Part shown: in pieces, positions 32,247 to 47,146 of the stretch
Numbering within the stretch: position 1 is the stretch's first letter
Layout of the letters: the number at the start of each line of letters is the position of its first letter
Source of the DNA: a virus
Taxonomy: Duplodnaviria; Caudoviricetes
Direction: 5' to 3' (one strand)
Length of the DNA stretch: 50,934 nt
Virus record (IMG/VR): IMGVR_UViG_3300030382_002670
Location: 1-50,934 of that record
Program-made: the position numbers and the translations under genes
Notes under the pieces: generated by a model
Databases searched by the model: none
Seen by the model: only the letters and a program-made list of their open reading frames with translations
Told to the model about the DNA's origin: nothing

Positions 32247-34810
32247 TGGCACTACAAATGCACACACCAATAGTTAAGTATGATTTTGGAGATTCCTTCT
32301 CTTCTGCTATGGTAAAAGGAAAGCAAGAAGAATGGCGAAAATCAGAAGCTATAAGAAAAGAAGCTGCAGCTCTTGATACTTATAAAGAAAAGTTAAAGGC
32401 TCAAAACGAACTTGCTACTGACCTTGAAACTAAGAATATTAATAAGCAGAATAATTTCATGGAGCATTGGTATAGTCAGTTAAGTACTATAGGTCCTTAT
32501 GGTGGACTAGAAAATGGTGTATTTAAACCTAACTATGACTTAAATCAGGGAACTTTATCTGCTCCTGAAATGTGGAAAAATATAGTTAGTCATGCTAGAG
32601 AAACTGGAGTCCCTATTAAGCCTGGGGATTTCAAATTCTTTTTAGAAGAATATTCAGGGAATGAGCAGCTTAGAGATGAGCATATGATAGGTACTCTTAA
32701 TATAGCTATAAATAAATTAAATAAGCAATTTGAGGGCATGCCAGATGGTGACAAGCGTCAAGCTGTGATGGATGGCTTAAATGAAATGGGATTAACTCCA
32801 TATTTCAACAAATATCAAGGTATGTTTAGTACTGAAGATTTTATTGAAACATTTGCAAGTTTACCTCCAGAAACTCTTGGAGATGAGGATGATGGCTCAT
32901 GGGCAAATTCAGAGTCTACATTAGGTTGGATGGGAGAAAAGATAGGATATGACATACCTACAAGTGGAAATGATTACTTTGACGCTGCAGTTATATTAGC
33001 ATCAAGAGCTGGTTATAAGAGGCTAAAAGGCTTCATGGGCGATAAATATAGAAATGTTAAGGCTAAGTATGGATGGGGTCAAAATGTTAAATCTAAGACA
33101 CAAATAGCTGCTGAAGAGGTTTCAAATAAAGTAAATGCTACAGTAAAGGCTAAAGGAGATACGAAGTCTGTTGTAAAGAAATCTGAGGAGATTGTAAATA
33201 AAACTTTAAATTTAAAGAGGTCTGACCTTCCTAAGGGTACAAAAAAGACAACAATAGATAATCTAGTTAATAAATTAAACTCAGATAAAATCAATTTGAC
33301 AAAAGGTGAGAACAATGTATTAAAACACTTATTGCAGACAAATAAAAGTCCTAGCTTTGTAAAGAATATAGCTAATAAAATACAGCCTAATCCAGTCAAT
33401 CCTATAAGTTTTAAGATGAATTATAGAAGGAATATGGATGTATTTGATAATCATATTAAATTCTTAGACAAAACAGCTAAAGGCCTAGATAAAAGAACTA
33501 TAAGTTATAAGAATATGATAAGAGAATTAGATGAAGTTAGAAGTATGAAATATAGTTATAAGCAACTTGAAAATATAATGTGGAGAGATAGAATAAAACA
33601 GGGTTTTAACCAAATGAACTTTTTAAAGGATAGTAGATTTGGCAAATGGTTAAATAGAGGCGGTGGACCTGGACTTCATATGCTTGTTGCACCTGGTGTT
33701 GTACATAAAGTATATCAAGATTCTTTTAAGGAGTCTGGAGGAAATGAATTTAAGGCAAATTGGGATGCCTCTTTGTCTATGATGATGTTTGATATACCAT
33801 TAGCTTTTCAATCTAAAGGTTTAATAACTAATTTAATGAATTATGGTGGACCTAAACTAGCTTCTAGGCTTGGTATTAGTACAGCATTGGCTAGTTCGGA
33901 TGCTACTCTTCCTATAGGAGATGCAGCAGCGGTAGGTTTAAATGCATATTGGATAGCTAAAGATACTAATGCTGCGGTTCAATCTAATAGAATACATAAC
34001 TATTATAAGAAGAATGGAGTGCCTCCTGAAGATGTTTTAGATGATATTGTTGATGACATGTATACTAATGTGGCTATGGAGTCATTAAAGGCTGATTATA
34101 ACCCATTAATGTGGCAAAATGATATAAGTATAAAAACCTTAAAGGATTTACTTGACAAAGGTTATGAAAGAAAGATATTGACAGATGAAAATGGCAATAC
34201 TAAAAGTTATGGATTATGGTCAGATAAGCAAAACTTAGCTGGAAGACCTGCTCCATCACCTGGAGAGCAAATTGAATTAACCAAGAAAACAAAATTAACA
34301 GGTAGAAATCCTGAATTTAATTTGAATACTGGTTTTTATAGTACAGCGATTGAATCTTCAGCGCAGAACTTAGGTGAGTTTGACAATGCAATGCCTGTTA
34401 CAAATCAGTTAGCTGAAATGACCATGGAAAATCCACCACCAGAAGATATTAAAGAACTTCTAGTAGATAAATATGGAGATGATTGGGCTAGAGTATGGCA
34501 AAGTAATGTAGGCTATGTTACTAATCCATATGCTGATGCTGGCGTATCTAATTATGACGGCAAAGACAATGAAAGAGCTTTAGAACTCTTCATGAATAAG
34601 AAGTGGAATGGTGATTTATTTAAGAAAATGTTAAAAGCTTCACTATTAGAATCTTTCTACAATCAAAGTGATTTTAAAGAAAAGTATCCAAAGCAATGGG
34701 AAAATAAAGCATCAGATGCATATAATAGGAAGTTGTCAATTATAAAGCAACTTGAAAATATATCTGGAGAGGATATACCAGACGCGTACGAAGAACGTAT
34801 AGGAAGCTAA
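32246..34810 (+). CDS. putative internal virion (ejection) protein
   Basis: 854 aa between the pilot-like gene and the giant gene; G/A-rich hydrophobic segment (LPIGDAAAVGLNAYWIA). Confidence 0.65.
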   Translation: MALQMHTPIVKYDFGDSFSSAMVKGKQEEWRKSEAIRKEAAALDTYKEKLKAQNELATDLETKNINKQNNFMEHWYSQLSTIGPYGGLENGVFKPNYDLNQGTLSAPEMWKNIVSHARETGVPIKPGDFKFFLEEYSGNEQLRDEHMIGTLNIAINKLNKQFEGMPDGDKRQAVMDGLNEMGLTPYFNKYQGMFSTEDFIETFASLPPETLGDEDDGSWANSESTLGWMGEKIGYDIPTSGNDYFDAAVILASRAGYKRLKGFMGDKYRNVKAKYGWGQNVKSKTQIAAEEVSNKVNATVKAKGDTKSVVKKSEEIVNKTLNLKRSDLPKGTKKTTIDNLVNKLNSDKINLTKGENNVLKHLLQTNKSPSFVKNIANKIQPNPVNPISFKMNYRRNMDVFDNHIKFLDKTAKGLDKRTISYKNMIRELDEVRSMKYSYKQLENIMWRDRIKQGFNQMNFLKDSRFGKWLNRGGGPGLHMLVAPGVVHKVYQDSFKESGGNEFKANWDASLSMMMFDIPLAFQSKGLITNLMNYGGPKLASRLGISTALASSDATLPIGDAAAVGLNAYWIAKDTNAAVQSNRIHNYYKKNGVPPEDVLDDIVDDMYTNVAMESLKADYNPLMWQNDISIKTLKDLLDKGYERKILTDENGNTKSYGLWSDKQNLAGRPAPSPGEQIELTKKTKLTGRNPEFNLNTGFYSTAIESSAQNLGEFDNAMPVTNQLAEMTMENPPPEDIKELLVDKYGDDWARVWQSNVGYVTNPYADAGVSNYDGKDNERALELFMNKKWNGDLFKKMLKASLLESFYNQSDFKEKYPKQWENKASDAYNRKLSIIKQLENISGEDIPDAYEERIGS

Positions 34811-34964
34811 ATGGCTAAACAACCTGAGGTAAGATGGTCAGAAAACCAGGCGTTTTATAGGTGCCTATGAAGCCAATCCCGGTCAATTTAATGAAGCAAC
34901 ATTAGAAAGTATACAGGCGCATGCTTATCATCATGGAATAGCATTTTATCCAGGTGAGTTTAAT
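34811..34964 (+). other. probable true N-terminal segment of the giant protein, interrupted by a +1 frameshift
   Basis: ATG 34811 directly follows the previous stop and reads MAKQPEVRW... to TGA 34868-34870; the giant gene's frame is open from 34833 (DGQKTRRFIGAYEANPGQF...) with no start codon before GTG 34965. Confidence 0.65.
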
Positions 34965-37900
34965 GTGTTAGATGCAATAAAACAAGCTGGAGGAGGGTTC
35001 CTCTCTGGATTTACTGCTTCAATATCTTCAGAGCTAGGTCTTGACGTAAAAGATGCTCCAGACAATGAGTATGAGGCTATTGCTAGAAAAATGGGTGAAC
35101 TAGCTGGATTTGCTCCTGGTATATTGTCTGCTCCTCTTAAGACAATTGGTTTAAAAGGATTAGCAGCTAAATCTGCTGCACTTAATAAAAAATCACTTCC
35201 AATGGCTGGTGCTGACTTAGCACAAAAGCAAGTTAAAAAAATAATAAAACCTATCCTTGAAAAAAGCTTACAAAATTCACATGGAGCTTCAAAAACTGCA
35301 ATGGATTTTATTACAAGTGGACCTGGTATGCATATGGCAGAGGGAGCTTTTCACTTAGGTGTAGCTTCTAGTATCTCTAACTGGAGAGGTATTGTAGACG
35401 GAGGTATGGAAGAATTTGTCAATACATTTAAGCATGGAGCTGAAGCTGGTGCGGTATTTAGAGGGCTAGGTAATTTAATTCCAGGAGATAAAGCTGCCGA
35501 TTTATGGCTTAGAAGAGTATCTGGTAGTTTGTATATGGGTATACCTTCAACAGAAAGAGGAGATTCTACTCCAGAACAAGTATATGAATATCTACTTGGC
35601 GCATATTTTGGAGGAGCTGAAAGACCTTGGTATGTAGCTAAAGCTGGTAAATTTAATAAAAGAATGTATGAGCAAAGTGAGAATGACCCAGAATTAAGAA
35701 GGACTCAAGACCCTACCTTAGTTAAGGGATGGCAAAGCCTTGACCCTATTGTTCAGAAAGAAGTAGTTAGAATGACAAATAAACGTTTAGGTGGTTCTAC
35801 TGCTGATGAGCGAAGAGGTGACGCTTATGAGCTTATGCGTGAATTTGGCATTATTGATAAACTTGAAAAAGCTGAGGATATAAATACTAAAGGATTTAAG
35901 TTATTAAATCAAGTTATTGATGGAGAAGTTCAACCTGATAAAAATGCACCTCCTAGTGAGAAGTTACATCATATGCTTTCTTTGGGAAATAGAGGAGTAA
36001 AGGGTACTAATCGTAATTCAGCTGATGAAGTTTTTGCGGATAAATCTGTTGAATATGGTAATCCTATTTATCATTATACATTTGGTACCGTAAAGGGAAA
36101 GCCTGGGCACTCTAAAACTATTAAAGCCAAGGGTGGCAAAAGAGAATTATCTCAAACAGAATTAAATGAAGCCACTGAATTTGTCGATAAAGCTAATCTA
36201 AGTTTAGGTAAGATTATAGGTAGATTAAATACTTATAAGCGTAATTTAATTAGAAGAGCCCATGCAGCTACTAAGCATGCTAGTAGTATATATGCTATAG
36301 ACAATTTAAGGCCAGATATGAAAGGCGTTCAGAGTAAATCTGCTGAATGGACTGTTCAAATGGCTATTGATAAGAAAAGACCTGTATATGTATACGACCA
36401 ACAGGCTCGAGCTTGGTATAAATATAACTACAATAAGAATATACAAAGATTTCAAGCAATAGAAGGAACTCCTAAATTAAAGAAATTTGCTCTCGGCACA
36501 GGGACTAACGATATAAACAAATATGGCAAAGCAGCTATAAAGGACTTATTTAAAGTTACTTATGGAGAAATGGAAGGTGCTGCGGAAACAGAATCTGTTC
36601 CTAGAGGTAAAGAAGAAACTTGGATGACTATCCAGTCTGAAATAGAAAGATTGCAAAAGGAAGACGTCGATGACCCTCAGATAAAAAAATTAATGAAAAA
36701 ACAAGCTGATATCTTAGGGATAAAGTCCAAAGAATATTTAGATGCTGCAACTGGAGAGGTAAAAGAAGACGTTGAAGTCGATATAGATATCGGGCAAATG
36801 ATTGACGCTGGTATTGGTAAGCGTTCAAAGAGATGGATAGATGCATGGTATGATGACATGTTTCCCAAAGGACGAAAAGGGACACAAGTAAAAAAAGGCG
36901 TAGACAAATTATTTATTTCAAGTAGAATAGAAAAGTTACTTAGAGAGCATTTACCTGCTGGAGAAGAGGCATCTACACTTATTGCTAGAGATTTTAAGAA
37001 ACTATTTAAAAAGAATATACCTGATGCTGCTCTTGGCGAGATAAGACAATGGGTGACTGCTGCAACTCAAGGCAAGCCAGTTAGATTTTTAAAGTCTGAT
37101 GGTGGGAAGGTTTATTTAACAAGAAGAGATAAACCTTTTACAATGGGTGGTAAAAATAAGCTAGTAATGGCTCCTCCTTCAGCATTAGAAGAAGCATTTC
37201 TTGAAGCTACTAATACAAAACTGAAAGAATTTGACAAGAAAAACCCTGCTGGTGTTGAAATAATACTTGACGAAGTTACTGTTAGAGATAGAAACGGGTT
37301 TCAAGTAGATATTCCCTTGTCAAGATATGAGTCTCATCTTGTACAACATGGAAAGAAAGGTAAGAAAGAAGCTGCTCAAATAGTAAATAATTTTATTGGC
37401 AGAACTATCAAGTTTATGTATGATAAACATGGAATGGTTCCTCACGCTGGTGTAGGGGATAAGGATAGAATTATCTTTGCTAAAAATATGTATGATTTTG
37501 CTGATAAAATGCCAAAAGCCTCTAGAAAGCTCGTATTTGACGTTTTAAAGCAAAAAAATGTAAAGACTGATAAGTTACTGTTTAGAGTTAAATTTGGCTT
37601 AGATAAGAAATTTGCAGATAAAATATACAAAGAGACGTTTATTTCTAACCTAACTTACGATGCTTTAATGAACTTTGGAAATAAGGTTAAGACTCCTGTT
37701 TTAAAGAAATGGATAAACTCTAAGTTTGGAAAAGGTAGGGGTGATTTCATAAATAATGCAGTGGCATTAAATAAAAGAAATCAAATATGGTTCACTAATT
37801 CATTTAGAGCTAGTGATAAACATATAGAAAATTATTTAGAAGATTTAGGGACTAATGATATAGTCGATGGTAAGACAAAAGGTATTATAGTCAATGAGCT

Positions 37901-40900
37901 ACCTAAAGGATTTAAAGAGCCAAAGAATCCTAAGAACTCTCAAACTGCAGAATCTACTGATGGTGGTGTTATATTGAGAGATGATTATGTCGAAGCAATG
38001 AATAGCGATGGTGGTTATCCTACAGTAAAAGAAGCTGGACAACTTAAAGCATTCATAGTATCTCCAGATGCTACATTAGGTGCATTATTAACTAAAAAGA
38101 TGTATCATAGTGCTGGACCTGCTCAGAGTGAAGCAATGAAAAAGGCTGGAATTTCTCATATTATATATGGAAGTTCAGCTAAACAGCGTGGCTTTAGACC
38201 ACAGATTGACCATGATGTGGTTAATGGAGAGCTTGTATTTGACAAAAAAGGTATGATAGATATACCTCTTAAGGATATTAGATATACTTATTCTACTAGA
38301 CAAGGTCAAGATATGCTAGAGAATAGAATGATTGTTAAACAGGCTCTTATGCATATACATCCTAATGCTCAAACTCCAATTGACAATGACGTAATTGATG
38401 ACTTTTTTAAAGGAACTATTGGAGAACGATTCACTGGTACTCATAGGGGTAGTAGAATAATTAATGATTACCTTCAAGATTTTAGTGACAAGAAGATTGA
38501 TAAGATAATAGATAATTTTGATGAAATAGGTATCCCTGATATTATAAAAGCTTTAAAAACTAATGGTGCTGAGACATTAGCTGAACAAATATATGTAAAA
38601 ATGTTAAAAGTTAATAAAAAATCATTACAAGAGGCATTTGCTAGGGGAGAGTTGTCTAATGAAGATGTGAAGATATTAGATGCTGAGCTTGAAGATTCAT
38701 TTAGTGATGTAGATAGGATGATAACTCAGTCAAGAATATTCCAAATGCAAAATCCAGATGCAGCTTCTTTTTCTATATTTGACCATAAGTATGTAAGAGG
38801 TTGGAGAGAGCAATCTATGAGGAATGCTATTGTTCAGACAGCAACACAACCTATAATGTCAAATTCTTTATTGACTAGAATGAGACCTTATGACAAATGG
38901 GCTCAACAAGGATTAGATAATCCAGAGACTAAAAGATTAGAGAAAGAACAAGATATATTCTTCTTAGATAATGCATTTAAAAATAAAGAAATGAGAACTA
39001 TACTTAAAGGTTATGAAAGGACTACGTTAGAAAAACTTTGGAAATTCTATAATAAAAGCTCTACAAGTAAAAAAGACAAAGCATACTTAGAAGATGTGTT
39101 TAATGCAGTATCCTTAAGGGTACCTTTAGACTCTATCTCTGGCGCACAGGTTTTAAAGTTTGCTGGGTTTTCAGGACGACCAGGCCATGGAGTTATGCTT
39201 CATGGCAAGGTTATGAGAAGAGAAGGCGGTGCTGACCTTGATGGAGACGAATCTTTTATCTATTTTGGTGGAAAACTAGAAGATGGTACTGGATATGGCA
39301 TGAAAAATAGTTGGAAGAAAATGTACTCTTCAAATGCTAATGAATTTATGAATGAAAAAGGATATGAAACAGAAGCTAAGACTAAAGAAATGAGGGATTT
39401 GTTTACATTGGATGTTTCTGAATCAATGAAGGAACGTATGATGAGCCCTGAAATGACATATTCACCTAATCAAAGAATGTTCGTTGGGATGGAAGCAGCT
39501 AAGGGTAGAGATATGCTTAAAAACATCATATCTAATTCTCAAGTAATGAAATCTGCATGGAACTCTGTTATGGCAAAGCCAGGTAAAGAAGATATGTGGA
39601 CATTTACTAGGAGAGAGCAGAAAGGGAAGAAAGGTAAGTCTTATACAGTTACCTATAGAATAAAAGTTAAAGCTAATGATACTACTGAAGCAATGAAACT
39701 TCAAAGAGATATGACTAGAGCTCAAACTGCATTTGGAGCTGACCCTTTAGATGAGCTTGGCTTAAAGGAAGCGGATGTTTTTCATTCTACATTATGGAAT
39801 GCCTATTTCACTCCTGTTAAAATAGAAAAGATGGGATTTGCTGGTACTAGGTGGAAAAATGTCAAATTAGATAAATTTAAATTAAAGCGTTGGGAGATGA
39901 ATGGTGGTGCTATCAATACATTTAGAGACCTTAATAGCGCTCTTTATAGTAAGAATTATACTGCAAATAGAAAATGGTCTGCTCAAGAAATAGCTAATAA
40001 AGTATTAGCTGCAGGCGATATCTTGCCTGGTGAAAGCAATACAATGCTTCCAAAAATTGGTAAATTATTTTCTGGACTAGATTGGTCTGATAATATCTTT
40101 AATAGAATAAACAAGAAATTACTTGTAAAAGTATATGATAGTCACGACACATATGCACTTAAAAAAGACTACATGAAGGATATACTTGGCCGTAACACCT
40201 TAAGAGCTCCATTTAATAATTATGTTGAAAATGTCATGGGTGGTACTAAGGAGCTAAAGAATGGAGAGATTTTTGACTATGGATATAAAGATTTACAGGC
40301 TCCGGGTGTTATAGAAGCTGTAGCTAGGAGTAGAAGGTTATTCCAAAACGCATTGTCTGGATTAGATTATTATAAAACTGATAGACCTCGTATTAAAGAA
40401 GCTTTAAATAGTATCCCAAAAAGAGAAGCTATATTAAGGGAAATAGTTAGAGAAGGCAATAACATGATTTATGAGGACATGACTGATATGACGACTGTCC
40501 AACTAGCTGTGGAAATGATAGAGAAGACTAAAACATCAGGCAAGCTTGTTAAAAAGATGATGGATTTTGAAAACACTGTAAAAAGAAAAAGTTATATTCA
40601 AGCTAGGAAGAGGAAAGATAGGGGTACATATGAAGGTCCTGAGACGCAATCAGATGTAGAGAATGAACGTAAAATGAAGATAGCTGAAGACATACTTACT
40701 AAAGTATTTGGTACAAAAAAAGAAGCTCGAGAAAAACTAGGTATTGGAGAGCAAAGAACTGCAGAGCTAGACCAAGCTGAAATAGACCAGCTAATTAAAG
40801 ACTTTAGGAAAGATAATAAGCTAAATAAAGGACAAAATCTATTGTTGGATTATTTCTTATTAGGTAGCTTAAGAAGAGGTGATGTCCAAAAGCTTAATGA

Positions 40901-43900
40901 TATTATATCAAAGATACCTCCTAAGGAATGGAACTCAGCTTTATATGATGTTGTTAGATATTATCAAAAACAAGCTTCTGATACTGGTATGTCTAAGTTA
41001 GCATTTAATTCCTCAGAGGTTTCTAATCTTGCTATACAGAATTTTTTAGGTAAAATGAATGGCTTATTTTCAAAATCTTTTCAAGGGGATAAGGTTGATG
41101 TTGAAGCTGAGATAGCAGAGCATGACAAAGAACGTGTTATAGAAACTGCTGATGGTAAAAAAATGAAAGAATCATTAGTTGAAAGAACTGTAGATGACCT
41201 TTTAGAAGAAGAATTTGCTCCTGATGGGACTGGATATACTGGTCTTAAGAAAGTTAAAATAAGTAAAGAAAGAAGACAAGTAGTACAAGAGTTAGCCGAT
41301 AATCTAAAGGCTTTAAATCCTAATGTCGCTAAGCATTTAAATGAAATTGTTAGAGGGACAATGGAGAAGGATTTGAATGCTATGACAAAAGAAGATTTTG
41401 AGGTTATGAATAATATCTTTAAAGAATTTAGAAGAGGTACCTTTTGGCAGCGTGTAGAAAGCTGGGTAACAGGTGATGTCTCTGGGAAAACAGACCCTTT
41501 GCAAAGAGTTCAAAAAAGAAGCTGGTGGGAAATGCCTTTAACTGTCAATAGAGAACTTATGCAAAAACATATAATGTTCATGAAGCAGAAGGGTATTTTC
41601 TTTGATAAAGATGGAGAGGTTAGAAGTGGATGGATTAGAAAACCTACTCAAGCTATTGGCGTTCTAAATGAGTATATCAATAATGCTTTAGGTAAAGCTG
41701 TTGGAGTATCTGATGATTTAATTAGACAGTTTAGAGAAGAAACTTTATTTTTAAAAGATATTAAAGAAGGTGATGAATTATGGGAAATAGCTGTAAGAAA
41801 GCGTGAATTAGGAATAATGAATGAAATTTGGTCTGATGCATCAACTCCTGAAATTGTAAGAGCATATTGGGCTAGTAGGTACAAAAATGCTTATAATGAT
41901 GCTCTTAAAAAACATAATTGGGATAGGCTTAAAACAAGAGAATATGTTATAGAAGAGAATGGTGAGAAGGTAAAGAGAAGCTCGGAAGAGATAGTAGAAA
42001 GAATTAATTCTCAACTTACTGAAAGATTTGCCAAGATGCATGATTTTATAAAGGGAGATAAAGATGCTTTAGAGCCATTTAGAGAAGGATGGTATGACCC
42101 TAAAGGCGAGACTCAACCTATCATTAATACAGAAAAGTTTTTAAAGTATGCCGCTAACAAGTTTGCTAAAGGAGAAGATATCTCTTCAAAGTTTGGCATA
42201 GATGGATTAAGGCATATAGCACGCTCTATGATGATTGAGTTAGCTCCTAATGCTAAGGAAAAGAAAAGATTATTAGAATTTATCATAGAAGATACTGGAA
42301 AGCTTGATTATCAGCACTATTTTCCTCATATGCACTTTAGTAGAACAGAGGCAAATAACTCTTTAAAAGAGGCTATTAGAGCTATTAGAGAAACTCCTGA
42401 TTCTATTATGGATGCTGAAACCAAAGATTCAGAAGTAGATAAAATCACCTTAAGACACAAATCATTAACTGGTGATTGGGACTTTTATGATATAAAAGAT
42501 TGGGATAAGCATGATGCTGCTGTTATGAAAGCAAGCCTTGAAAGAATTGGTTCTAAAAGAGCTGAAAAAGGTGACCAACTTAAGTGGTATAATGCGAATC
42601 AGCGTTCTGGTAGTATGATGTCAAGGAACTCTCACGTTCCTGGATGGGCTGTAGGTCAAGAAGTGGTTGAATCCTACATGAGGAATTTGTCAAATACGTA
42701 TTATAGGCAGTTATCACAAATAATGTCAAGACATGTTATAGAACAGTTTAAAGACCAAGGTAAAAAGCTTGGATGGGATAAGGTACATTATGGTAAATCC
42801 TCTGAGTTTTATCCAAAAGGTCGCTCCCTAATGGATAGATGGGTAGATTGGCTAAAGCTTTATGTGCAAGATTCTATAGGAAATCCATCTGTAATACCTG
42901 AAGAAATGTATAAAGACCCTGGAATGAAACTAAAGGGCAATGTATATGGCTGGTTTGCAGATAATCATGTTAGAGATGTGATAAACAAGGTGGGTGAGAA
43001 CCTAATGCCAGCAGGTAAGAATTGGTCTAAAGATTTACCTCCAGAAATGAGAGGAATTGATTTGGCTACTATAAGAGATTGGTCTAATCTCGAAGCTAAA
43101 TATCAGCTTATGACTTTATTGGCGCATCCTAAGTCTACTATTACAAATGTTTTTGGTGGCGCAATGCATACTATAGAGTCTGTAGGTGTTGGAACATTTA
43201 GAAAAGCTAGGGATTTAGAGTATTTAAGACAAATTAATCCTGAGTGGGACTCTATGGACAAGGTGAAAGATTTTGTTGTAAAACATGGAGTATTGCCTGA
43301 GTTTATCTTAAATGAAGCTGGATTAGATAGGTCCTTCAAGTCTGCTAATGCTAAAGCTTTCATAAAGGACGTTGTAGACAAGTATACCAATGAGAAATAC
43401 TCTTTTGAGACTCTTCGTGGTTTAGCTAAAAAGCATGGTGTAAGTAATGCTATAATGAATAAAGCAGGTGCTTTTATGTCTAAGCCAGAACTTATGCTTA
43501 GAAGGGATGCTTTTATGGCTCATTATATTAGAGCTTATGAAAGTTTTGGTGGTGCTATTAAAGATATAAATCATCCCTTTTTAATACAAAAAGCTAAAGA
43601 AGGTGTAAAGGCAACTCAGTTTTTATACAACGCTCCTAATCGTCCTGCTTTTGCAAGGACTGCTCTCGGTAAAGTAATGACAAGATTCCAGCTATGGGCT
43701 TGGAACTCTGTTCGTTTCAGAAATGATGTATTGAGACAAGCTAAGATATACGGCTATAAAGAAGGTACTGAAGCTATGAAGAAGTTTGAACGTACTGCTC
43801 AAATAGATATGTTTGTCATAGCTTTGGCTAATGCTTATCAATTTTCTATATTTGAATTTGCCTTACCTGCTCCTTATAATTGGTTACAGGACACAGCTGA

Positions 43901-44312
43901 TTGGGTGTTTGGCGACGAAAAGGAAAGAGACCGTGCATTTTATGGTGCATGGCCATCTACGGTAGCTCCGCTTCAGATAGTTACTCCGCCAATCGCTAGA
44001 GTTCCTTTAGGTTATTACAAGGGGTGGGTATCAGGTGATTATAGTCATATGACAGACTATATTCTACCTGTATCTTTTCCTTTTGGAAGAATGGCAAGAG
44101 ATATTTATAATCCATGGAAACCAGAGGATGGTTTACTTATGAATCCTTTGAAAGCTGTAGATAAAATTACTGGATTTCCATTGCAATCTATCTCTTGGGA
44201 TGTTTCTGATTATAAACGTAGACATGGTATAGGTAGAAAACCTAAGAAAGAGAAAGTTAAAGAGAAGAAAGGTACTGCTCTAGGGAGATATTATGAAAAG
44301 AAAAACAAATGA
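34965..44312 (+). CDS. giant virion protein containing a two-barrel (DPBB) RNA polymerase; putative virion RNA polymerase
   Basis: GGADLDGD at 39225-39248, preceded by SLRVPLDSISG (RxP motif); upstream ESTDGG motif; SLOG-like domain at about 35960-36560; last large gene of the virion block. Confidence 0.82.
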   Translation: MLDAIKQAGGGFLSGFTASISSELGLDVKDAPDNEYEAIARKMGELAGFAPGILSAPLKTIGLKGLAAKSAALNKKSLPMAGADLAQKQVKKIIKPILEKSLQNSHGASKTAMDFITSGPGMHMAEGAFHLGVASSISNWRGIVDGGMEEFVNTFKHGAEAGAVFRGLGNLIPGDKAADLWLRRVSGSLYMGIPSTERGDSTPEQVYEYLLGAYFGGAERPWYVAKAGKFNKRMYEQSENDPELRRTQDPTLVKGWQSLDPIVQKEVVRMTNKRLGGSTADERRGDAYELMREFGIIDKLEKAEDINTKGFKLLNQVIDGEVQPDKNAPPSEKLHHMLSLGNRGVKGTNRNSADEVFADKSVEYGNPIYHYTFGTVKGKPGHSKTIKAKGGKRELSQTELNEATEFVDKANLSLGKIIGRLNTYKRNLIRRAHAATKHASSIYAIDNLRPDMKGVQSKSAEWTVQMAIDKKRPVYVYDQQARAWYKYNYNKNIQRFQAIEGTPKLKKFALGTGTNDINKYGKAAIKDLFKVTYGEMEGAAETESVPRGKEETWMTIQSEIERLQKEDVDDPQIKKLMKKQADILGIKSKEYLDAATGEVKEDVEVDIDIGQMIDAGIGKRSKRWIDAWYDDMFPKGRKGTQVKKGVDKLFISSRIEKLLREHLPAGEEASTLIARDFKKLFKKNIPDAALGEIRQWVTAATQGKPVRFLKSDGGKVYLTRRDKPFTMGGKNKLVMAPPSALEEAFLEATNTKLKEFDKKNPAGVEIILDEVTVRDRNGFQVDIPLSRYESHLVQHGKKGKKEAAQIVNNFIGRTIKFMYDKHGMVPHAGVGDKDRIIFAKNMYDFADKMPKASRKLVFDVLKQKNVKTDKLLFRVKFGLDKKFADKIYKETFISNLTYDALMNFGNKVKTPVLKKWINSKFGKGRGDFINNAVALNKRNQIWFTNSFRASDKHIENYLEDLGTNDIVDGKTKGIIVNELPKGFKEPKNPKNSQTAESTDGGVILRDDYVEAMNSDGGYPTVKEAGQLKAFIVSPDATLGALLTKKMYHSAGPAQSEAMKKAGISHIIYGSSAKQRGFRPQIDHDVVNGELVFDKKGMIDIPLKDIRYTYSTRQGQDMLENRMIVKQALMHIHPNAQTPIDNDVIDDFFKGTIGERFTGTHRGSRIINDYLQDFSDKKIDKIIDNFDEIGIPDIIKALKTNGAETLAEQIYVKMLKVNKKSLQEAFARGELSNEDVKILDAELEDSFSDVDRMITQSRIFQMQNPDAASFSIFDHKYVRGWREQSMRNAIVQTATQPIMSNSLLTRMRPYDKWAQQGLDNPETKRLEKEQDIFFLDNAFKNKEMRTILKGYERTTLEKLWKFYNKSSTSKKDKAYLEDVFNAVSLRVPLDSISGAQVLKFAGFSGRPGHGVMLHGKVMRREGGADLDGDESFIYFGGKLEDGTGYGMKNSWKKMYSSNANEFMNEKGYETEAKTKEMRDLFTLDVSESMKERMMSPEMTYSPNQRMFVGMEAAKGRDMLKNIISNSQVMKSAWNSVMAKPGKEDMWTFTRREQKGKKGKSYTVTYRIKVKANDTTEAMKLQRDMTRAQTAFGADPLDELGLKEADVFHSTLWNAYFTPVKIEKMGFAGTRWKNVKLDKFKLKRWEMNGGAINTFRDLNSALYSKNYTANRKWSAQEIANKVLAAGDILPGESNTMLPKIGKLFSGLDWSDNIFNRINKKLLVKVYDSHDTYALKKDYMKDILGRNTLRAPFNNYVENVMGGTKELKNGEIFDYGYKDLQAPGVIEAVARSRRLFQNALSGLDYYKTDRPRIKEALNSIPKREAILREIVREGNNMIYEDMTDMTTVQLAVEMIEKTKTSGKLVKKMMDFENTVKRKSYIQARKRKDRGTYEGPETQSDVENERKMKIAEDILTKVFGTKKEAREKLGIGEQRTAELDQAEIDQLIKDFRKDNKLNKGQNLLLDYFLLGSLRRGDVQKLNDIISKIPPKEWNSALYDVVRYYQKQASDTGMSKLAFNSSEVSNLAIQNFLGKMNGLFSKSFQGDKVDVEAEIAEHDKERVIETADGKKMKESLVERTVDDLLEEEFAPDGTGYTGLKKVKISKERRQVVQELADNLKALNPNVAKHLNEIVRGTMEKDLNAMTKEDFEVMNNIFKEFRRGTFWQRVESWVTGDVSGKTDPLQRVQKRSWWEMPLTVNRELMQKHIMFMKQKGIFFDKDGEVRSGWIRKPTQAIGVLNEYINNALGKAVGVSDDLIRQFREETLFLKDIKEGDELWEIAVRKRELGIMNEIWSDASTPEIVRAYWASRYKNAYNDALKKHNWDRLKTREYVIEENGEKVKRSSEEIVERINSQLTERFAKMHDFIKGDKDALEPFREGWYDPKGETQPIINTEKFLKYAANKFAKGEDISSKFGIDGLRHIARSMMIELAPNAKEKKRLLEFIIEDTGKLDYQHYFPHMHFSRTEANNSLKEAIRAIRETPDSIMDAETKDSEVDKITLRHKSLTGDWDFYDIKDWDKHDAAVMKASLERIGSKRAEKGDQLKWYNANQRSGSMMSRNSHVPGWAVGQEVVESYMRNLSNTYYRQLSQIMSRHVIEQFKDQGKKLGWDKVHYGKSSEFYPKGRSLMDRWVDWLKLYVQDSIGNPSVIPEEMYKDPGMKLKGNVYGWFADNHVRDVINKVGENLMPAGKNWSKDLPPEMRGIDLATIRDWSNLEAKYQLMTLLAHPKSTITNVFGGAMHTIESVGVGTFRKARDLEYLRQINPEWDSMDKVKDFVVKHGVLPEFILNEAGLDRSFKSANAKAFIKDVVDKYTNEKYSFETLRGLAKKHGVSNAIMNKAGAFMSKPELMLRRDAFMAHYIRAYESFGGAIKDINHPFLIQKAKEGVKATQFLYNAPNRPAFARTALGKVMTRFQLWAWNSVRFRNDVLRQAKIYGYKEGTEAMKKFERTAQIDMFVIALANAYQFSIFEFALPAPYNWLQDTADWVFGDEKERDRAFYGAWPSTVAPLQIVTPPIARVPLGYYKGWVSGDYSHMTDYILPVSFPFGRMARDIYNPWKPEDGLLMNPLKAVDKITGFPLQSISWDVSDYKRRHGIGRKPKKEKVKEKKGTALGRYYEKKNK

Positions 44313-44526
44313 TATATTAAAGGCAGCTATAGAAAAGTTTAATCAGCCTAAGGAAAGGCCAATTCACTCTATACAGGATATTGTATCTGCTAATCAAATG
44401 CAGTATGCTAAGGAAGGAAGACAGATTGGTGGACCTTGGGATGTTCGTAAGTTTATTACGCCTAGAATTAAGGACAATGAAGGTGATTTAGGGTTTAAAG
44501 ACTTAGCGTCTCAATTACTATCTTAA
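44293..44526 (+). CDS. hypothetical protein, last plus-strand gene
   Basis: 77 aa with GGGAGA Shine-Dalgarno; stop overlaps the convergent minus-strand gene. Confidence 0.6.
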   Translation: MKRKTNDILKAAIEKFNQPKERPIHSIQDIVSANQMQYAKEGRQIGGPWDVRKFITPRIKDNEGDLGFKDLASQLLS

Positions 44527-44717
44527 ATTTCTCCAATTCCCTTCCTGTCGTGCTTTTCTAGACACATAGAGACAAGTGCTGTACTAGAGCATTCTTTTAA
44601 TGCTACTACACACTCATCCTCAAAGAAATTCCCATCTGCGTCTAAGAATCCTACTGATACTTTTATTAATGGCTTAGAAGAAGTCAATATTTCTCCTGTT
44701 AGCTCGCATAACTTCAT
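44523..44717 (-). CDS. hypothetical protein
   Basis: 64-aa ORF ending the minus-strand block. Confidence 0.6.
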   Translation of the reverse strand: MKLCELTGEILTSSKPLIKVSVGFLDADGNFFEDECVVALKECSSTALVSMCLEKHDRKGIGEI

Positions 44718-44744
44718 GTTTCGTCTCGCTTTTAATTAACTAAT

Positions 44745-45161
44745 TTAATCATTATCCTCCTCAAATCCTACTAATTTTGTGGCATTGCTCACAAAAGTGG
44801 TACCTATAACAGCTCTACAGGAACACCCTTGTCTATGCATAGTGCATTGAGAACACATTCCAGTATCAGTCATAGCCCAAAGTAGCATTAGATATACCAT
44901 AGCATCTGTTATTCTCCCTGTGACATCTTCTCTTTGAGATTTATGTCCCTTTACATATGCTACAATTCCATCTATATGCTTTAATAAGTAGGTCATTAAG
45001 ACTTCTTCTCTTGACTGGTCTAAAGCATCTGCTATTCTTTCAAAGTTGGCAAATACATTATCCTTGTCTTGTGCGTATTCTTTTTGTCCAGCGTCTCTAT
45101 TCTTCGCTATCGCTGGTAGAATCACTTCCTTTATTAACTTCTTCATTGTTGAGTGCTTCAT
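44745..45161 (-). CDS. Nmad1/DUF1599-like all-alpha nucleotide-modification-associated protein
   Basis: KEYA...NVFANFE...KH.D.I...GRITDAMVYL pattern of the MazG-like alpha-helical superfamily; AAGGAG Shine-Dalgarno. Confidence 0.6.
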   Translation of the reverse strand: MKHSTMKKLIKEVILPAIAKNRDAGQKEYAQDKDNVFANFERIADALDQSREEVLMTYLLKHIDGIVAYVKGHKSQREDVTGRITDAMVYLMLLWAMTDTGMCSQCTMHRQGCSCRAVIGTTFVSNATKLVGFEEDND

Positions 45162-45405
45162 TTTCTAACTCCTTTATTCTTATATCCATATATTTATTAA
45201 ACTCTTCTTCCTTCCCTAGGAATTTAATGAGCTCCATTACTACTCCCTCTGTGGATTTTAATTGATTTTCCAAGAACTGTATATGCATCTGTAATCCACC
45301 TATCATTTGCATTTGTTCTGCCTTAGTTGGTGCTTTCTTTTTCAAGTGCTTTCTCCTTTTTCTTTTTTCTCCAGAATTTATTACCAAATTCTTCTTTATA
45401 GGCAC
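45097..45405 (-). CDS. hypothetical coiled-coil protein
   Basis: 102 aa, basic N-terminus, overlaps neighbours. Confidence 0.6.
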   Translation of the reverse strand: MPIKKNLVINSGEKRKRRKHLKKKAPTKAEQMQMIGGLQMHIQFLENQLKSTEGVVMELIKFLGKEEEFNKYMDIRIKELENEALNNEEVNKGSDSTSDSEE

Positions 45406-45535
45406 ATTCTACACATACTTCTAGTTCATGGCCTGTTATCATACCTATCCATAAAAATCTCTCAGAAAGCGCCATTTTCTTACACATAGGGCAAGTATCG
45501 TGACGCTTTCCAAGATGTTTGTGAATGTGAGACAC
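45323..45535 (-). CDS. small Zn-finger protein
   Basis: CPMC and CVEC pairs; GTG start. Confidence 0.6.
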   Translation of the reverse strand: MSHIHKHLGKRHDTCPMCKKMALSERFLWIGMITGHELEVCVECAYKEEFGNKFWRKKKKEKALEKESTN

Positions 45536-45859
45536 CTATTGAGATTTTCCTCGGTCTTCTGGCTCTGACCATTTACTCATAGCTTTGTCGGCTTCTTGTA
45601 TATGGCGGCTAACAGACACTGTGGGACCACTCTTTTGTGTTGCATTCACTTTGCTTTCAACAGGAACTGATGTCTGGGATGGCTCTTCATCAAACAAGTC
45701 ACCATTAAGACAAGTTCCTCTAAACTTAGACATATCTAAGTCATACTCTCCTGCAAAATATTCTGCAAGAGAGTTGGTTATAGGGCCAATCCATCTTGTA
45801 TTAGATAGGATTCCCTTTATTATCTGTGCTATCGCGTTTAAATCCTTGTCGCTTATCAT
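45536..45859 (-). CDS. hypothetical protein
   Basis: 107 aa with GGAGA Shine-Dalgarno. Confidence 0.7.
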   Translation of the reverse strand: MISDKDLNAIAQIIKGILSNTRWIGPITNSLAEYFAGEYDLDMSKFRGTCLNGDLFDEEPSQTSVPVESKVNATQKSGPTVSVSRHIQEADKAMSKWSEPEDRGKSQ

Positions 45860-45904
45860 AGATTCTCCATTAGTTGTTTATTTGTCTTTTCATTCATTTC
45901 AAAT

Positions 45905-46636
45905 CTATACTTGCACTCTTTCTTTGGGCCATGGTTTAGACCTAGTTGTATTAAGCCAAGTCCATGTATCATACACTGAGTGCATAATATCGCTTGGTTT
46001 GGCTTTCTTCATCTTATAATTAGGCTCTCTAATCCATTTACCCTTAGTGTATAAAGCATACATTTCTATCTCTTCTATATCAAATGTTTTTCTTATTAGT
46101 TCTGCGTACATGTTTAGCTGTATTTCATGAGTTTTATGTTCTTTGCCTGTTTTTAAGTCGATTACTGCTAGCTTTCCATTGATTTCACATATAATATCAG
46201 GCGTTCCTGCCCAATTTACATCTTCGTGCCATAGGAAGAGCTCTGTTTTTAATACTGTAAGATTGTTTTCTTTCCAGAATCGTTCAAAACTCATCATATG
46301 TTTAGCTAACTCATCATCTACTTCCTCTGTCTCATCGTCATAATTTGATACAACAACTTCTCCATTGAGAAATTTCTCTACCATGTTATGAACTTGTGTA
46401 CCTCTCCAGGCAGCCTTATCTCTTTCTTGGCAGGCTATATTATAGCTAGGATGATTACCTAGCCATTTCTCAAAACCTATACCCTTAGTTATGGTTCCAC
46501 CTATAATCGTAGTTACAGAAGGTTTCCATTGGTTACTCTTTTCAGGAGCATACCATCGAACTCCAGAGGTATGCCTTTTAATAGGTCTACCTTTGTATTC
46601 TTTTATGTGGTTATATAAGCCATTCTCCATCATCAT
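45905..46636 (-). CDS. PD-(D/E)XK exonuclease (Cas4/RecB-like phage family)
   Basis: PSVTTI, RGTQVH, E...AGTPD...IDLKT and QLNMY motifs. Confidence 0.9.
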   Translation of the reverse strand: MMMENGLYNHIKEYKGRPIKRHTSGVRWYAPEKSNQWKPSVTTIIGGTITKGIGFEKWLGNHPSYNIACQERDKAAWRGTQVHNMVEKFLNGEVVVSNYDDETEEVDDELAKHMMSFERFWKENNLTVLKTELFLWHEDVNWAGTPDIICEINGKLAVIDLKTGKEHKTHEIQLNMYAELIRKTFDIEEIEMYALYTKGKWIREPNYKMKKAKPSDIMHSVYDTWTWLNTTRSKPWPKERVQV

Positions 46637-46996: not shown

Positions 46997-46998
46997 TT

Positions 46999-47130: not shown

Positions 47131-47146
47131 GTATTCTCCATTTTAT

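What the first reader, a model, noticed from the sequence alone, without database searches (positions are those of the whole stretch)
34965..44312. Giant virion protein hides a two-barrel RNA polymerase with a canonical DxDGD site: a candidate new virion-RNAP system
Seen: the 3115-aa last gene of the virion block contains SLRVPLDSISGAQVLKF followed about 35 aa later by EGGADLDGDESFIY (ADLDGD at 39231-39248), with ESTDGGVILR (about 37950-37980) and lysine motifs upstream. Established: RxP...NADFDGD marks the catalytic double-psi beta-barrel of beta' subunits; GxDxDGD with an upstream DG motif marks QDE-1-type RNAi polymerases and phage YonO. crAss-like phage phi14:2 packages a single-chain two-barrel RNAP (gp66) with the variant DFDID and injects it with the DNA. 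Inference: this phage ejects a single-chain RNAP to transcribe its early, opposite-strand genes. Its DLDGD site and the surrounding gene set (M15 endolysin, AEP-DnaB fusion, SD-led genes) suggest a lineage distinct from crAss-like phages and from N4, whose vRNAP is T7-like.
Basis: partly seen in the sequence, partly recalled or inferred. Interest (0 to 1): 0.92.

Follow-up and report, generated by a model that had tools for sequence, protein, structure and literature searches.

The report
Giant phage protein with RNA polymerase
The 3,115-residue protein that ends the virion gene block of this uncultured ~51-kb marine phage carries a single-chain "two-barrel" RNA polymerase with an intact active site, probably packed in the particle and injected to start phage transcription, as in crAss-like phages but in a separate, undescribed protein family.

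Summary
ORF 34965-44312 (+) encodes 3,115 aa with RVP at 1385-1387 and DLDGD at 1424-1428.

A DxDxD alone is expected about once by chance in a protein this size. Here it is kept in every near-full-length homologue. An AlphaFold model of residues 900-1900 (pLDDT 85) places it in the second of two double-psi beta-barrels.

Every top structural match is a single-chain two-barrel RNA polymerase:
- QDE-1: Z 16.7
- maize RDR2: Z 14.0
- P74 gp62: Z 14.0
- phi14:2 gp66: Z 12.7 (Foldseek E 2e-6)
- P23-45 gp96: Z 12.0

No sequence method links the protein to any of them. It is a new family (333 cluster representatives, mostly about 3,000 aa, marine metagenomes).

Virion packaging and ejection are inferred, not shown. 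The grounds are gene position, conserved synteny, and a C-terminal module weakly like that of giant "polyvalent" podovirus proteins.

The phage is not a Crassvirales member: it has an SU10-type capsid protein, not the Crass capsid. Gene order is nonetheless crAss-like, and one relative is a prophage in a Bacteroidota chromosome.

Verdict: a new variant of a known kind.

The parts
34811..34870 (+). Probable true start of the giant gene: ATG with AGGA upstream, 19 codons, then TGA. A 1-nt frame change near the A4 run 34842-34845 joins it to the giant frame, which is open from 34833.
   Evidence: frame-0 translation upstream of 34965 aligns with homologue N-termini (QTRRLI...AFYPGDFS). SD-like motif.
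34965..44312 (+). Giant ORF as listed: 3,115 aa, 354.8 kDa, pI 9.3. No strongly hydrophobic 19-residue stretch on a Kyte-Doolittle scan (threshold 1.6), so no obvious transmembrane segment. A single DxDxD.
34965..35714 (+). Conserved N-terminal module (aa 1-250), function unknown.
   Evidence: Conservation profile. Pfam and NCBIfam give nothing. Atlas gives only weak leads: LPD22, P22 gp16 at 0.87.
36021..36791 (+). Accessory domain (aa 353-609) similar to 'DprA-like'/SLOG segments of other giant phage proteins. Present in only about 60% of aligned family members.
   Evidence: tblastn: Klebsiella phage Pylas virion RNAP E 8e-16; crAss cr113_1 giant protein E 2e-10.. No Pfam cpYpsA hit in this protein.
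37749..40619 (+). Two-barrel RNA polymerase core (aa 929-1885, the ordered part of the model).
   Evidence: AF2 model pLDDT 85.3, pTM 0.83. Foldseek and VIA-align matches to gp66, QDE-1, RDR2, P74 gp62 and P23-45 gp96.
37872..38285 (+). First double-psi beta-barrel (aa 970-1107, beta-subunit-like). It holds the near-invariant DG of ESTDGG (aa 999-1000). The invariant K1028, K1044 and K1073 lie on its strands.
   Evidence: Strands. Invariant columns. Barrel-fold matches to model residues 44-213.
38385..38846 (+). All-helical connector of about 150 aa between the barrels (aa 1141-1294).
   Evidence: Secondary structure. gp66 and QDE-1 have a connector of about 140 residues (paper passages).
38865..39275 (+). 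Second double-psi beta-barrel (aa 1301-1437, beta'-like). It holds R1385-V-P1387 (nt 39117-39125) and the catalytic D1424-L-D-G-D1428 (nt 39234-39248).
   Evidence: DPBB domain matches to model residues 398-560. hhalign places this stretch on gp66 1315-1383, which holds DFDID (not significant).
42912..44114 (+). Most conserved part of the family (aa 2650-3050), all-helical. Its core (aa 2820-2939, nt 43422-43781) weakly resembles the C-terminal 'PLxRFG/tail-700' domain of giant podovirus proteins.
   Evidence: NCBIfam NF032893 E 6.9e-7, 28 bits against a cut-off of 100. hhalign to the 4,675-aa giant protein of Pseudoalteromonas phage Y7: probability 65%, E 6e-5, 112 columns. Model pLDDT is only 62.7.
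32246..34810 (+). 854-aa lysine- and asparagine-rich protein just upstream, with no family match. A possible companion internal or ejection protein (inference only).
4667..10849 (+). Large terminase (4667-6289), P22-type portal (6306-8477), 312-aa protein, and SU10-type major capsid protein (9458-10849). Together they mark the head end of the virion block.
44523..50933 (-). Opposite-strand replication and recombination block: PD-(D/E)XK exonuclease, HNH/endonuclease VII, primase-DnaB helicase, and a Sak4-like gene cut by the contig end. It continues at 65-1304 (-) with peptide deformylase. These are the presumed early genes.

Best explanation
The giant gene encodes a multi-module virion protein whose central third (aa ~930-1885) is a single-chain two-barrel, Mg-dependent RNA polymerase.

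Shown here:
- Two double-psi beta-barrels joined by a helical connector.
- The second barrel carries an invariant RxP...GGADxDGD.
- The first barrel carries three invariant lysines.
- The fold is that of QDE-1, phi14:2 gp66 and the P23-45 polymerases.

Inferred:
- The protein is made late with the virion proteins and packed in the head.
- It is ejected with the DNA through the P22-type portal and tail.
- It then transcribes the opposite-strand early block before any phage protein is made. This gives a start independent of host RNA polymerase.

The conserved N- and C-terminal modules would serve packaging or ejection. The DprA-like/SLOG domain is an optional add-on.

My odds: about 0.9 that it is a catalytically competent two-barrel polymerase, and about 0.65 that it is virion-delivered and transcribes early genes.
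For: Fold:
- Model of aa 900-1900: pLDDT 85.3, pTM 0.83.
- Foldseek against PDB: all 9 matches at E<=1e-3 are phi14:2 gp66 (E 2.2e-6) or QDE-1.
- VIA-align against 48,161 chains: QDE-1 Z 16.7 (460 aligned), RDR2 14.0, P74 gp62 14.0, gp66 12.7 (586 aligned, rmsd 4.1), P23-45 gp96 12.0. Large subunits of multisubunit RNAPs follow at Z 8-10.
- BFVD: after two members of its own family, the matches are giant proteins of crAss-like phages (E 1e-8 to 1e-4).

Active site:
- D1424, D1426, D1428, R1385, P1387, K1028, K1044 and K1073 are invariant in 44 of 44 sequences.
- 230 of 281 stored proteins have RxP...DxDxD, including every one longer than 1,700 aa.
- Conservation peaks at aa 1001-1050 and 1401-1450 within the core.

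Virion role:
- The gene closes the virion block after terminase, portal, capsid and fibre genes.
- This position is kept in the three relatives checked: G001, G002 and G004.
- phi14:2 places its proteomics-confirmed virion RNAP g066 among giant genes at the end of the same kind of block.
- The C-terminal module resembles that of a 4,675-aa 'DarB-like' giant podovirus protein.
- The DprA-like domain also sits inside the virion RNAP of N4-like phage Pylas and in a crAss giant protein.
- Passages read in PMC5512222 describe such polyvalent proteins as injected with the DNA.

No rpoC-type (PF00623) match was found in G000 or G001, with all 14 controls positive.
Against: - No virion proteomics, no transcription data and no enzyme assay exist for this family. 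Packaging and ejection rest on analogy.
- No sequence method links it to any known RNAP: Pfam, PHROGs and PDB sequences gave no accepted hit (Pfam: three chance-level matches far below cut-off; PHROGs and PDB: none). A profile against PDB gave only spurious hits. hhalign to gp66 gave E 0.14, probability 0.4%.
- No candidate early promoter was found. Sigma-70-like sites are at chance level and no repeated motif appears in the early block.
- The contig lacks part of the early block, so a second polymerase cannot be excluded from this window. The complete relative G001 shows none with the models used, but the T7-type model (PF00940) had no positive control.
- Bridge helix and trigger loop were not mapped residue by residue.
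- The C-terminal model is poor (pLDDT 62.7), and its family link is below the curated cut-off.
- The gene carries a frame change near its start.
Confidence: 0.65

Rival explanations
1. It is an active two-barrel RNA polymerase that is not packaged. It would work inside the cell late in infection, for example on late genes, as the non-virion polymerase of P23-45 does.
For: P74 gp62, the non-virion type, matches as well as most others (Z 14.0). Nothing here shows packaging.
Against: Non-virion two-barrel RNAPs are small (P74 gp62 chain 592 aa) and, in P23-45, are transcribed by the virion enzyme from a pre-early gene (abstract seen). This protein is 3,115 aa, sits at the end of the virion block, and has large conserved non-catalytic modules. 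One of these resembles the tail end of a giant podovirus protein. A polymerase first made with the late proteins cannot start late transcription.
Confidence: 0.12
2. The two-barrel module does something other than transcribe early genes. It might synthesise primers, make RNA from RNA as QDE-1 does, or even make DNA as the two-barrel PolD does, in a phage with no DNA polymerase of its own.
For: No family A or B DNA polymerase was found in G000 or in the complete relative G001, with positive controls. PolD DP2 appears in the structure list (Z 5.5). QDE-1, the best match, uses both RNA and DNA templates (abstract of PMC9508822 seen).
Against: PolD ranks far below the RNA polymerases (Z 5.5 against 12-17). 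The phage has its own primase-helicase. Many phages borrow the host replicase (general knowledge). The gene lies in the virion block, not the replication block.
Confidence: 0.08
3. The barrels are a catalytically dead relic, and the protein is only a structural or ejection component of the particle.
For: The most conserved stretch of the protein is the C-terminal module, not the polymerase.
Against: All three aspartates, RxP and three lysines are invariant across sequences down to about 20% identity. Such conservation is not expected without selection on catalysis.
Confidence: 0.05
4. It is simply an ordinary crAss-like phage, with the protein an orthologue of gp66.
For: Same fold. Similar order of terminase, portal, capsid, a metallophosphoesterase inside the structural block, and giant proteins at its end. 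A relative lives in Bacteroidota.
Against: - The capsid protein belongs to Pfam SU10_MCP. phi14:2's belongs to Crass_capsid at E 8e-200.
- BLASTP of capsid, portal and terminase against phi14:2 gives E >= 0.47.
- No PHROG hit for the giant protein.
- Gly rather than Ile/Val at the fourth motif position in 200 of 230 proteins (rule for crAss phages from passages).
- The genome is about half the size and has no DNA polymerase.
Confidence: 0.05

Closest known systems
[quoted passage not shown]
   Same: - Single chain with two double-psi barrels joined by a helical connector, embedded in a giant protein encoded among the last genes of the virion block.
- Best Foldseek match (E 2.2e-6).
- Longest structural alignment: 586 residues, rmsd 4.1, Z 12.7.
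- RxP...DxDxD aligns to gp66 1315-1383.
   Different: - 9% identity and no significant sequence or profile match.
- DLDGD with the canonical glycine instead of DFDID.
- 3,115 aa against 2,180 aa, with different flanking modules.
- The phage has a different capsid family, half the genome size, no DNA polymerase, and Shine-Dalgarno-led genes.
QDE-1 and plant RDR2, eukaryotic RNAi polymerases
   Same: Highest structural scores: QDE-1 Z 16.7 with 460 residues aligned, RDR2 Z 14.0. Same barrel-connector-barrel order.
   Different: They are cellular enzymes of about 1,000-1,400 aa with no virion context. Identity is 9-13%, and no RdRP Pfam hit was found.
P23-45 gp96 (tape-measure-fused virion RNAP) and gp64 / P74-26 gp62 (non-virion RNAP)
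   Same: Phage single-chain two-barrel RNAPs. gp96 is likewise fused to a huge virion protein (PMC10770324, passages read). Z 12.0 and 14.0.
   Different: Those belong to a long-tailed Thermus siphovirus, where the polymerase is fused to the tape measure. Here the phage has a P22-type portal, I identified no tape-measure protein, and the polymerase sits mid-protein.
N4 gp50-type virion RNA polymerase (Schitoviridae)
   Same: Giant protein of about 3,500 aa carried in the capsid and ejected to transcribe early genes (abstracts seen). The N4-like phage Pylas vRNAP shares the DprA-like accessory domain with this protein.
   Different: The N4 catalytic domain is T7-like, not two-barrel (recalled, and title of reference 36 seen). 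No T7-like polymerase appears among the 50 rows shown by each PDB search.
Giant 'polyvalent' / PLxRFG-domain proteins of podoviruses (Pseudoalteromonas phage Y7 'DarB-like' 4,675 aa; Lastavirus 495-kDa protein)
   Same: Very large multi-domain protein encoded with the virion genes. The C-terminal core is similar: hhalign E 6e-5 and NF032893 E 7e-7.
   Different: Those carry other enzyme domains (methylase or helicase by annotation) and no known polymerase. The similarity is below the curated cut-off. I saw only passages of PMC9505181.
YonO of Bacillus prophage SPbeta
   Same: Single-chain two-barrel phage RNAP (recalled; not tested here).
   Different: As I recall it, YonO is a small non-virion enzyme. 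No YonO structure or sequence came up in any search, so no comparison was made.

Membership tests
Two-barrel (double-psi beta-barrel) RNA polymerase superfamily | Two DPBB domains forming one active-site cleft | tested here: met
   AF2 model with pLDDT 85. Barrels at aa 970-1107 and 1301-1437. The top 6 VIA rows are single-chain two-barrel RNAPs (two are crystal forms of gp96), followed by large subunits of multisubunit RNAPs. Isolated DPBB domains match model residues 398-560.
Two-barrel (double-psi beta-barrel) RNA polymerase superfamily | DxDxD metal-binding motif in the beta'-like barrel, preceded by RxP | tested here: met
   D1424, D1426, D1428, R1385 and P1387 are invariant in 44 of 44 sequences. 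230 of 281 stored proteins carry the pattern, including all longer than 1,700 aa.
Two-barrel (double-psi beta-barrel) RNA polymerase superfamily | Conserved basic residues in the beta-like barrel | tested here: inconclusive
   K1028, K1044 and K1073 are invariant and lie on strands of barrel 1. Their residue-by-residue equivalence to the beta-subunit lysines was not checked, because no coordinates were available.
Two-barrel (double-psi beta-barrel) RNA polymerase superfamily | Bridge helix and trigger loop after the second barrel | tested here: inconclusive
   Long helices follow the barrel (model H602-637 and H675-693, the latter ending at invariant D1593). The structural alignment to gp66 runs to model residue 935. 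The elements were not mapped.
Two-barrel (double-psi beta-barrel) RNA polymerase superfamily | Template-dependent NTP polymerisation | not testable with these tools
   Needs an enzyme assay.
crAss-like virion RNAP (gp66 family, Crassvirales) | Detectable sequence homology to gp66 orthologues | tested here: not met
   0 PHROG families. tblastn of the core against 50,697 phage records gave no match. hhalign to gp66 gave E 0.14, probability 0.4%.
crAss-like virion RNAP (gp66 family, Crassvirales) | [quoted passage not shown] | tested here: not met
   DLDGD here. Across the family: G 200, I 18, A 11, S 1 of 230. The rule is taken from passages of 10.1101/2020.03.07.982082.
crAss-like virion RNAP (gp66 family, Crassvirales) | Genome carries the Crassvirus major capsid protein | tested here: not met
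   The window's capsid protein hits only PF17236 SU10_MCP (E 1.4e-27). phi14:2's hits PF23898 Crass_capsid (E 8.4e-200). BLASTP between the two gives E 0.79.
crAss-like virion RNAP (gp66 family, Crassvirales) | Protein present in virions | not testable with these tools
   Needs proteomics of particles. The phi14:2 record cites MS/MS for g066.
N4-type virion RNAP (T7-like single-subunit) | T7-like (right-hand) polymerase domain | tested here: not met
   The central domain is two-barrel. PF00940 found nothing in G000 or G001, but its control set held no positive, so that search alone is uninformative.
PLxRFG / 'tail-700' C-terminal domain of giant phage proteins (NCBIfam NF032893) | Match to the curated model over its cut-off | tested here: inconclusive
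   E 6.9e-7 but 28.1 bits against a cut-off of 100, covering profile positions 291-405 of 681. hhalign to the phage Y7 giant protein: probability 64.8%, E 6.1e-5. tblastn only E 2.
SLOG / DprA-like domain (Pfam cpYpsA PF12694 and relatives) | Match to the Pfam model | tested here: inconclusive
   No Pfam or NCBIfam hit for aa 330-620. tblastn similarity of 30-32% to segments annotated DprA-like, or lying inside the Pylas vRNAP. Other family members do hit cpYpsA, but at different positions.

The most novel reading that the evidence does not exclude
This family keeps the canonical DxDGD site and scores higher against QDE-1 than against crAss gp66 (Z 16.7 against 12.7). It may therefore be the viral lineage closest to the eukaryotic RNAi polymerases, and may represent the ancestral state of virion two-barrel RNAPs from which the crAss-type DFD(I/V)D enzymes derive. 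If so, injected two-barrel polymerases would be an old and widespread strategy of small podovirus-like phages (about 50 kb) in the sea and in Bacteroidota, not a peculiarity of Crassvirales.
Probability: 0.2. Interest if true: 0.8.

Novelty: new variant of a known kind. Interest (0 to 1): 0.62.

Why it matters
Virion-carried two-barrel RNA polymerases are known from experiment in only two phage groups: crAss-like phages and Thermus phage P23-45.

This finding adds a third, sequence-unrelated family. It has hundreds of members in ocean metagenomes. Its genomes are half the size of crAss phages, have a different capsid lineage and encode no DNA polymerase.

Three consequences follow:
- Injected transcription machinery is more common among uncultured phages than annotation suggests. 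Every source that gives a name calls these proteins hypothetical.
- The ordered core of about 950 residues, with a canonical active site, is a compact candidate for biochemistry and structure work.
- It is a new comparison point for the proposed phage origin of eukaryotic RNAi polymerases.

The integrated relative in a Bacteroidota genome offers a possible route to a culturable system.

Tried and rejected
Sequence searches that gave nothing useful:
- Pfam, PHROGs and PDB-sequence searches of the whole protein gave no accepted hit: three chance-level Pfam matches far below cut-off, none in PHROGs or PDB sequences.
- A profile built from fragment homologues (A3) against PDB sequences gave two spurious hits at E 0.6 and 9.
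- PF00623 (beta' barrel) did not ring in G000 or G001.
- tblastn of the polymerase core against 50,697 phage records gave no match. The whole protein hit only through the DprA-like segment.

C-terminal module:
- The AF2 model is weak (pLDDT 62.7).
- Foldseek against PDB gave no match at E<=1e-3, only helical-repeat noise. I draw no fold conclusion.
- The Atlas searches gave unnamed viral clusters and weak leads only: LPD39 in 28% of one cluster, LPD22, and P22 gp16 at 0.87.

N-terminal module: hhalign against the phage Y7 giant protein N-terminus gave nothing.

Promoter hunt:
- No repeat family with more than two copies in the early block.
- Sigma-70-like sites at chance level.
- The G-rich hairpin at 1360-1382 has no counterpart in G001.

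Host clues: no tRNA genes. The contig has no terminal repeat.

Comparisons with phi14:2: BLASTP of capsid, portal and terminase showed no similarity.

Tools and limits:
- Supplementary files of the gp66 and P23-45 papers were not seen. Extended Data Table 1 of the gp66 paper is an image and was not held. These may list conserved residues or further homologues bearing on the residue mapping and on novelty.

Literature: searches found no paper describing this marine family. Subscription journals are not covered.
Full report
**Observation**

The window is a single-contig virus record of 50,934 bp with 36% GC and no terminal repeat. CheckV estimates 99% completeness.

ORF 34965-44312 (+) encodes 3,115 aa.
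- ESTDGGVILR: aa 996-1005
- SLRVPLDSISGAQVLKF: aa 1383-1399
- EGGADLDGDESFIY: aa 1420-1433
- ADLDGD: nt 39231-39248

A DxDxD is expected about once by chance in a protein of this size and composition. The motif alone carries little weight.

The listed GTG start is probably not the real one:
- ATG 34811 has an AGGA motif upstream and follows directly after the stop codon of the upstream gene.
- The giant frame is open from 34833, and its translation there aligns with the N-termini of homologues.
- A 1-nt frame change near the A4 run at 34842-34845 separates the two frames.
- It may be an assembly error or a real change. I cannot tell which.

**Family**

Whole-protein searches of Pfam, PHROGs and PDB sequences gave no accepted hit (three chance-level Pfam matches far below cut-off; none in PHROGs or PDB sequences). 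The protein nonetheless belongs to a large family.
- 112 proteins of 1,713-5,452 aa match residues 1000-1800 at E<=1e-3. That search scored only the 7,997 candidates sharing most words.
- 333 cluster representatives out of 1.84 billion match residues 900-1900, 101 of them at E<=1e-30.
- Most are about 2,800-3,400 aa, from Tara, ENA and JGI metagenomes, on contigs of up to about 57 kb.
- The few names that sources give are 'hypothetical protein' or bare gene-call descriptors.

In a 44-sequence alignment reaching 19% identity, 13 residues are invariant: K1028, K1044, K1073, P1296, R1385, P1387, G1401, F1402, G1422, D1424, D1426, D1428 and D1593.

Of 281 stored proteins (near-duplicates included), 230 carry RxP...DxDxD.
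- All proteins longer than 1,700 aa carry it.
- The 51 without it are fragments of 1,700 aa or less.
- The fourth motif residue is G in 200, I in 18, A in 11 and S in 1.

**Structure**

An AlphaFold2 model of residues 900-1900, built with 37 aligned sequences, has pLDDT 85.3 and pTM 0.83. It shows:
- a first beta-barrel (aa ~970-1107) bearing the three invariant lysines on strands;
- an all-helical connector of about 150 residues;
- a second barrel (aa ~1301-1437) bearing RVP and DLDGD.

Foldseek against the PDB: the 9 matches at E<=1e-3 are phi14:2 gp66 (E 2.2e-6) and QDE-1 chains.

VIA-align against 48,161 representative chains:

| Match | Z | Aligned residues |
|---|---|---|
| QDE-1 | 16.7 | 460 |
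| maize RDR2 | 14.0 | 437 |
| P74-26 gp62 | 14.0 | 419 |
| phi14:2 gp66 | 12.7 | 586 (rmsd 4.1) |
| P23-45 gp96 | 12.0 | 316 |

Large subunits of Pol IV, Pol I, AR9, vaccinia, ASFV, phiKZ and M. tuberculosis RNAPs follow at Z 8-10. Isolated double-psi barrels come next, and PolD scores Z 5.5.

BFVD: two members of the protein's own family come first (E 6e-56 and 5e-48). Giant proteins of crAss-like phages follow at E 1e-8 to 1e-4.

**Sequence-level links to known polymerases are absent**

- A profile of family fragments found nothing real in PDB sequences.
- PF00623 does not ring in the genome, although all 14 controls do.
- hhalign of the family against gp66 is not significant (E 0.14). Its single alignment does lay RVP...GGADLDGD on gp66 1315-1383, which contains DFDID.

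This is a new family detectable only by fold and motif. The gp66 paper describes the same situation for gp66 against QDE-1 (8.6% identity; passages read).

**Other modules**

Conservation along the protein peaks at four places: aa 1-250, 1001-1050, 1401-1450 and, highest of all, 2650-3050.

Residues 353-609 are the only part that matches GenBank phages by tblastn. The matches are:
- an internal segment of the virion RNAP of the N4-like Klebsiella phage Pylas (E 8e-16);
- the C-terminal end of a 4,328-aa giant protein of crAssphage cr113_1 annotated 'DprA-like';
- Caulobacter phage Cr30, Vibrio phage 2.275.O and several huge uncultured phages.

This segment is present in only about 60% of aligned family members. 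Pfam does not recognise it here. Other family members carry Pfam cpYpsA (SLOG) at quite different positions. It is therefore a mobile accessory domain.

The C-terminal core (aa 2820-2939) has two weak links:
- NCBIfam 'PLxRFG/tail-700' at E 6.9e-7, but 28 bits against a cut-off of 100;
- the tail end of the 4,675-aa 'DarB-like' giant protein of Pseudoalteromonas phage Y7, by hhalign with probability 65% and E 6e-5.

Lastavirus phages also encode a 495-kDa PLxRFG protein (PMC9505181, passages). Iyer et al. describe such polyvalent proteins as injected with the DNA (PMC5512222, passages).

The C-terminal model is too poor (pLDDT 62.7) for fold conclusions. A Kyte-Doolittle scan finds no strongly hydrophobic 19-residue stretch, so there is no obvious transmembrane segment. 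The protein is basic, with pI 9.3.

**Genome context**

The + strand block holds, in order:
- endolysin, large terminase, P22-type portal and SU10-type capsid protein;
- a metallophosphoesterase;
- a 2,693-aa protein rich in Gly, Ser and Thr, likely a fibre;
- a 279-aa protein with an S74 chaperone domain;
- an 854-aa protein rich in Lys and Asn;
- the giant gene.

The convergent minus-strand block holds a PD-(D/E)XK exonuclease, HNH/endonuclease VII, primase-DnaB helicase and a Sak4-like gene cut by the contig end. Past the end it continues with peptide deformylase.

The complete relative G001 (52,686 bp) keeps this order and adds early genes missing here.

Neither genome has a family A or B DNA polymerase or a tyrosine integrase.

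**Relation to crAss-like phages**

phi14:2 shows the same order: terminase, portal, capsid, an internal metallophosphatase, and giant proteins including the RNAP at the end of the block.

Several features differ:
- Its capsid protein is Pfam Crass_capsid (E 8e-200), whereas the window's is SU10_MCP.
- BLASTP of capsid, portal and terminase between the two phages gives nothing.
- The nearest cultured capsids and terminases are below 30% identity and come from unrelated phages.
- SD-like motifs precede 22 of 44 starts here (background 14%) and 3 of 40 in phi14:2 (background 5%).

Against a sharp separation stand the hits in bacterial genomes. A scan of 185,579 species genomes found 5 loci, all in Bacteroidota or Rhodothermales MAGs.

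One of these lies inside a 1.84-Mb contig (G004):
- It is a syntenic island of about 40-50 kb with higher GC.
- Its portal is 39-41% identical, terminase 33%, primase-helicase 31%, and the giant C-terminus 29%.
- A tyrosine integrase lies next to the giant gene.
- The island is flanked by aroA, a MATE transporter and T9SS-sorted proteins.
- The giant frame there is split into several ORFs. This may reflect long-read errors or decay.

The wider family therefore includes temperate phages of Bacteroidota. The host of the marine clade stays unknown.

**Mechanism**

Shown: an intact, strongly conserved two-barrel polymerase module inside a giant late-block protein.

Inferred by analogy with phi14:2 gp66, P23-45 gp96 and N4 gp50:
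- The protein is packed in the head and ejected with the DNA.
- It transcribes the minus-strand early genes independently of host RNAP.

A polymerase first made with the late proteins is useful mainly to the next infection.

I found no promoter candidates. Nothing here tests packaging.

My odds are about 0.9 for a competent polymerase and about 0.65 for the full model.

**Novelty**

The kind is known. The family, its canonical DxDGD site, its flanking modules and its small DNA-polymerase-less podovirus-like genome are not described in the papers I could search.

Noticed in passing
window 34811-34965: The giant gene seems to start at ATG 34811, but a 1-nt frame change near the A4 run 34842-34845 puts a TGA at 34868-34870. 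The listed GTG start at 34965 drops about 50 conserved N-terminal residues. It may be an assembly error or a real change.
   Followed up: partly
window 36021-36791; L014 9001-9612; L015 12001-12498: A DprA-like/SLOG segment of the giant protein recurs in two other giant proteins. One is the T7-like virion RNAP of N4-like Klebsiella phage Pylas. The other is the 4,328-aa giant protein of crAssphage cr113_1, at its end. This accessory domain is thus shared by virion-delivered giants with unrelated catalytic cores. In family members that hit Pfam cpYpsA it sits at different positions (P0064 495-627, P0110 2114-2199, P0095 2649-2803).
   Followed up: partly
window 50535-50933 (-) and contig ends: The right end cuts a Sak4-like ssDNA-annealing gene; only profile positions 154-248 of 382 are present. 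The contig therefore lacks part of the early block despite a CheckV estimate of 99%. There is no terminal repeat.
   Followed up: yes
L018 (G001:C1:12700-19200) 2655-6378: The early block of the complete relative holds four genes absent from the window. These are a 103-aa protein ending GGKK, a 541-aa Cys-rich unknown, a 314-aa protein with a JAB-like HSHH...S..D motif, and a 228-aa protein with a ThiF/E1-like GxGxxG motif. Together they may form a ubiquitin-like conjugation set. This was read by eye only.
   Followed up: no
G004:C12 ~1,734,500-1,776,000 (L025, L027-L031): A relative of this phage is integrated in a 1.84-Mb Bacteroidota MAG contig. A tyrosine integrase lies beside the giant gene, and GC is 0.38-0.43 against flanks of 0.32-0.35. 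Its giant reading frame is broken into several ORFs.
   Followed up: partly
window 235-807 (-): A peptide deformylase gene (PHROG 2890, E 3e-22) lies in the presumed early block.
   Followed up: no
window 20488-21255 (+): A metallophosphoesterase gene sits inside the structural block, as g075 does in phi14:2.
   Followed up: partly
window 23064-31145 and 31407-32246 (+): A second giant protein (2,693 aa; 26% Gly, Ser and Thr combined; few Lys; no family match) is followed by a 279-aa protein with an S74 intramolecular-chaperone domain. They look like host-recognition fibres rather than cargo.
   Followed up: partly
whole window and G001: No family A or B DNA polymerase was found in either genome, with positive controls, although a primase-helicase, an exonuclease and an annealing protein are present.
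   Followed up: yes
window 1360-1392 (+): A strong hairpin (10-bp G/C-rich stem, 3-nt loop, then a T run) lies about 55 nt upstream of the first minus-strand ORF. No counterpart was found in the same region of G001.
   Followed up: partly
window 44293-44526 (+) and 44341-44364 (-): A 77-aa ORF overlaps the end of the giant gene, so the giant may not be strictly the last + strand gene. One terminator-like hairpin on the minus strand lies in the convergent gap.
   Followed up: no
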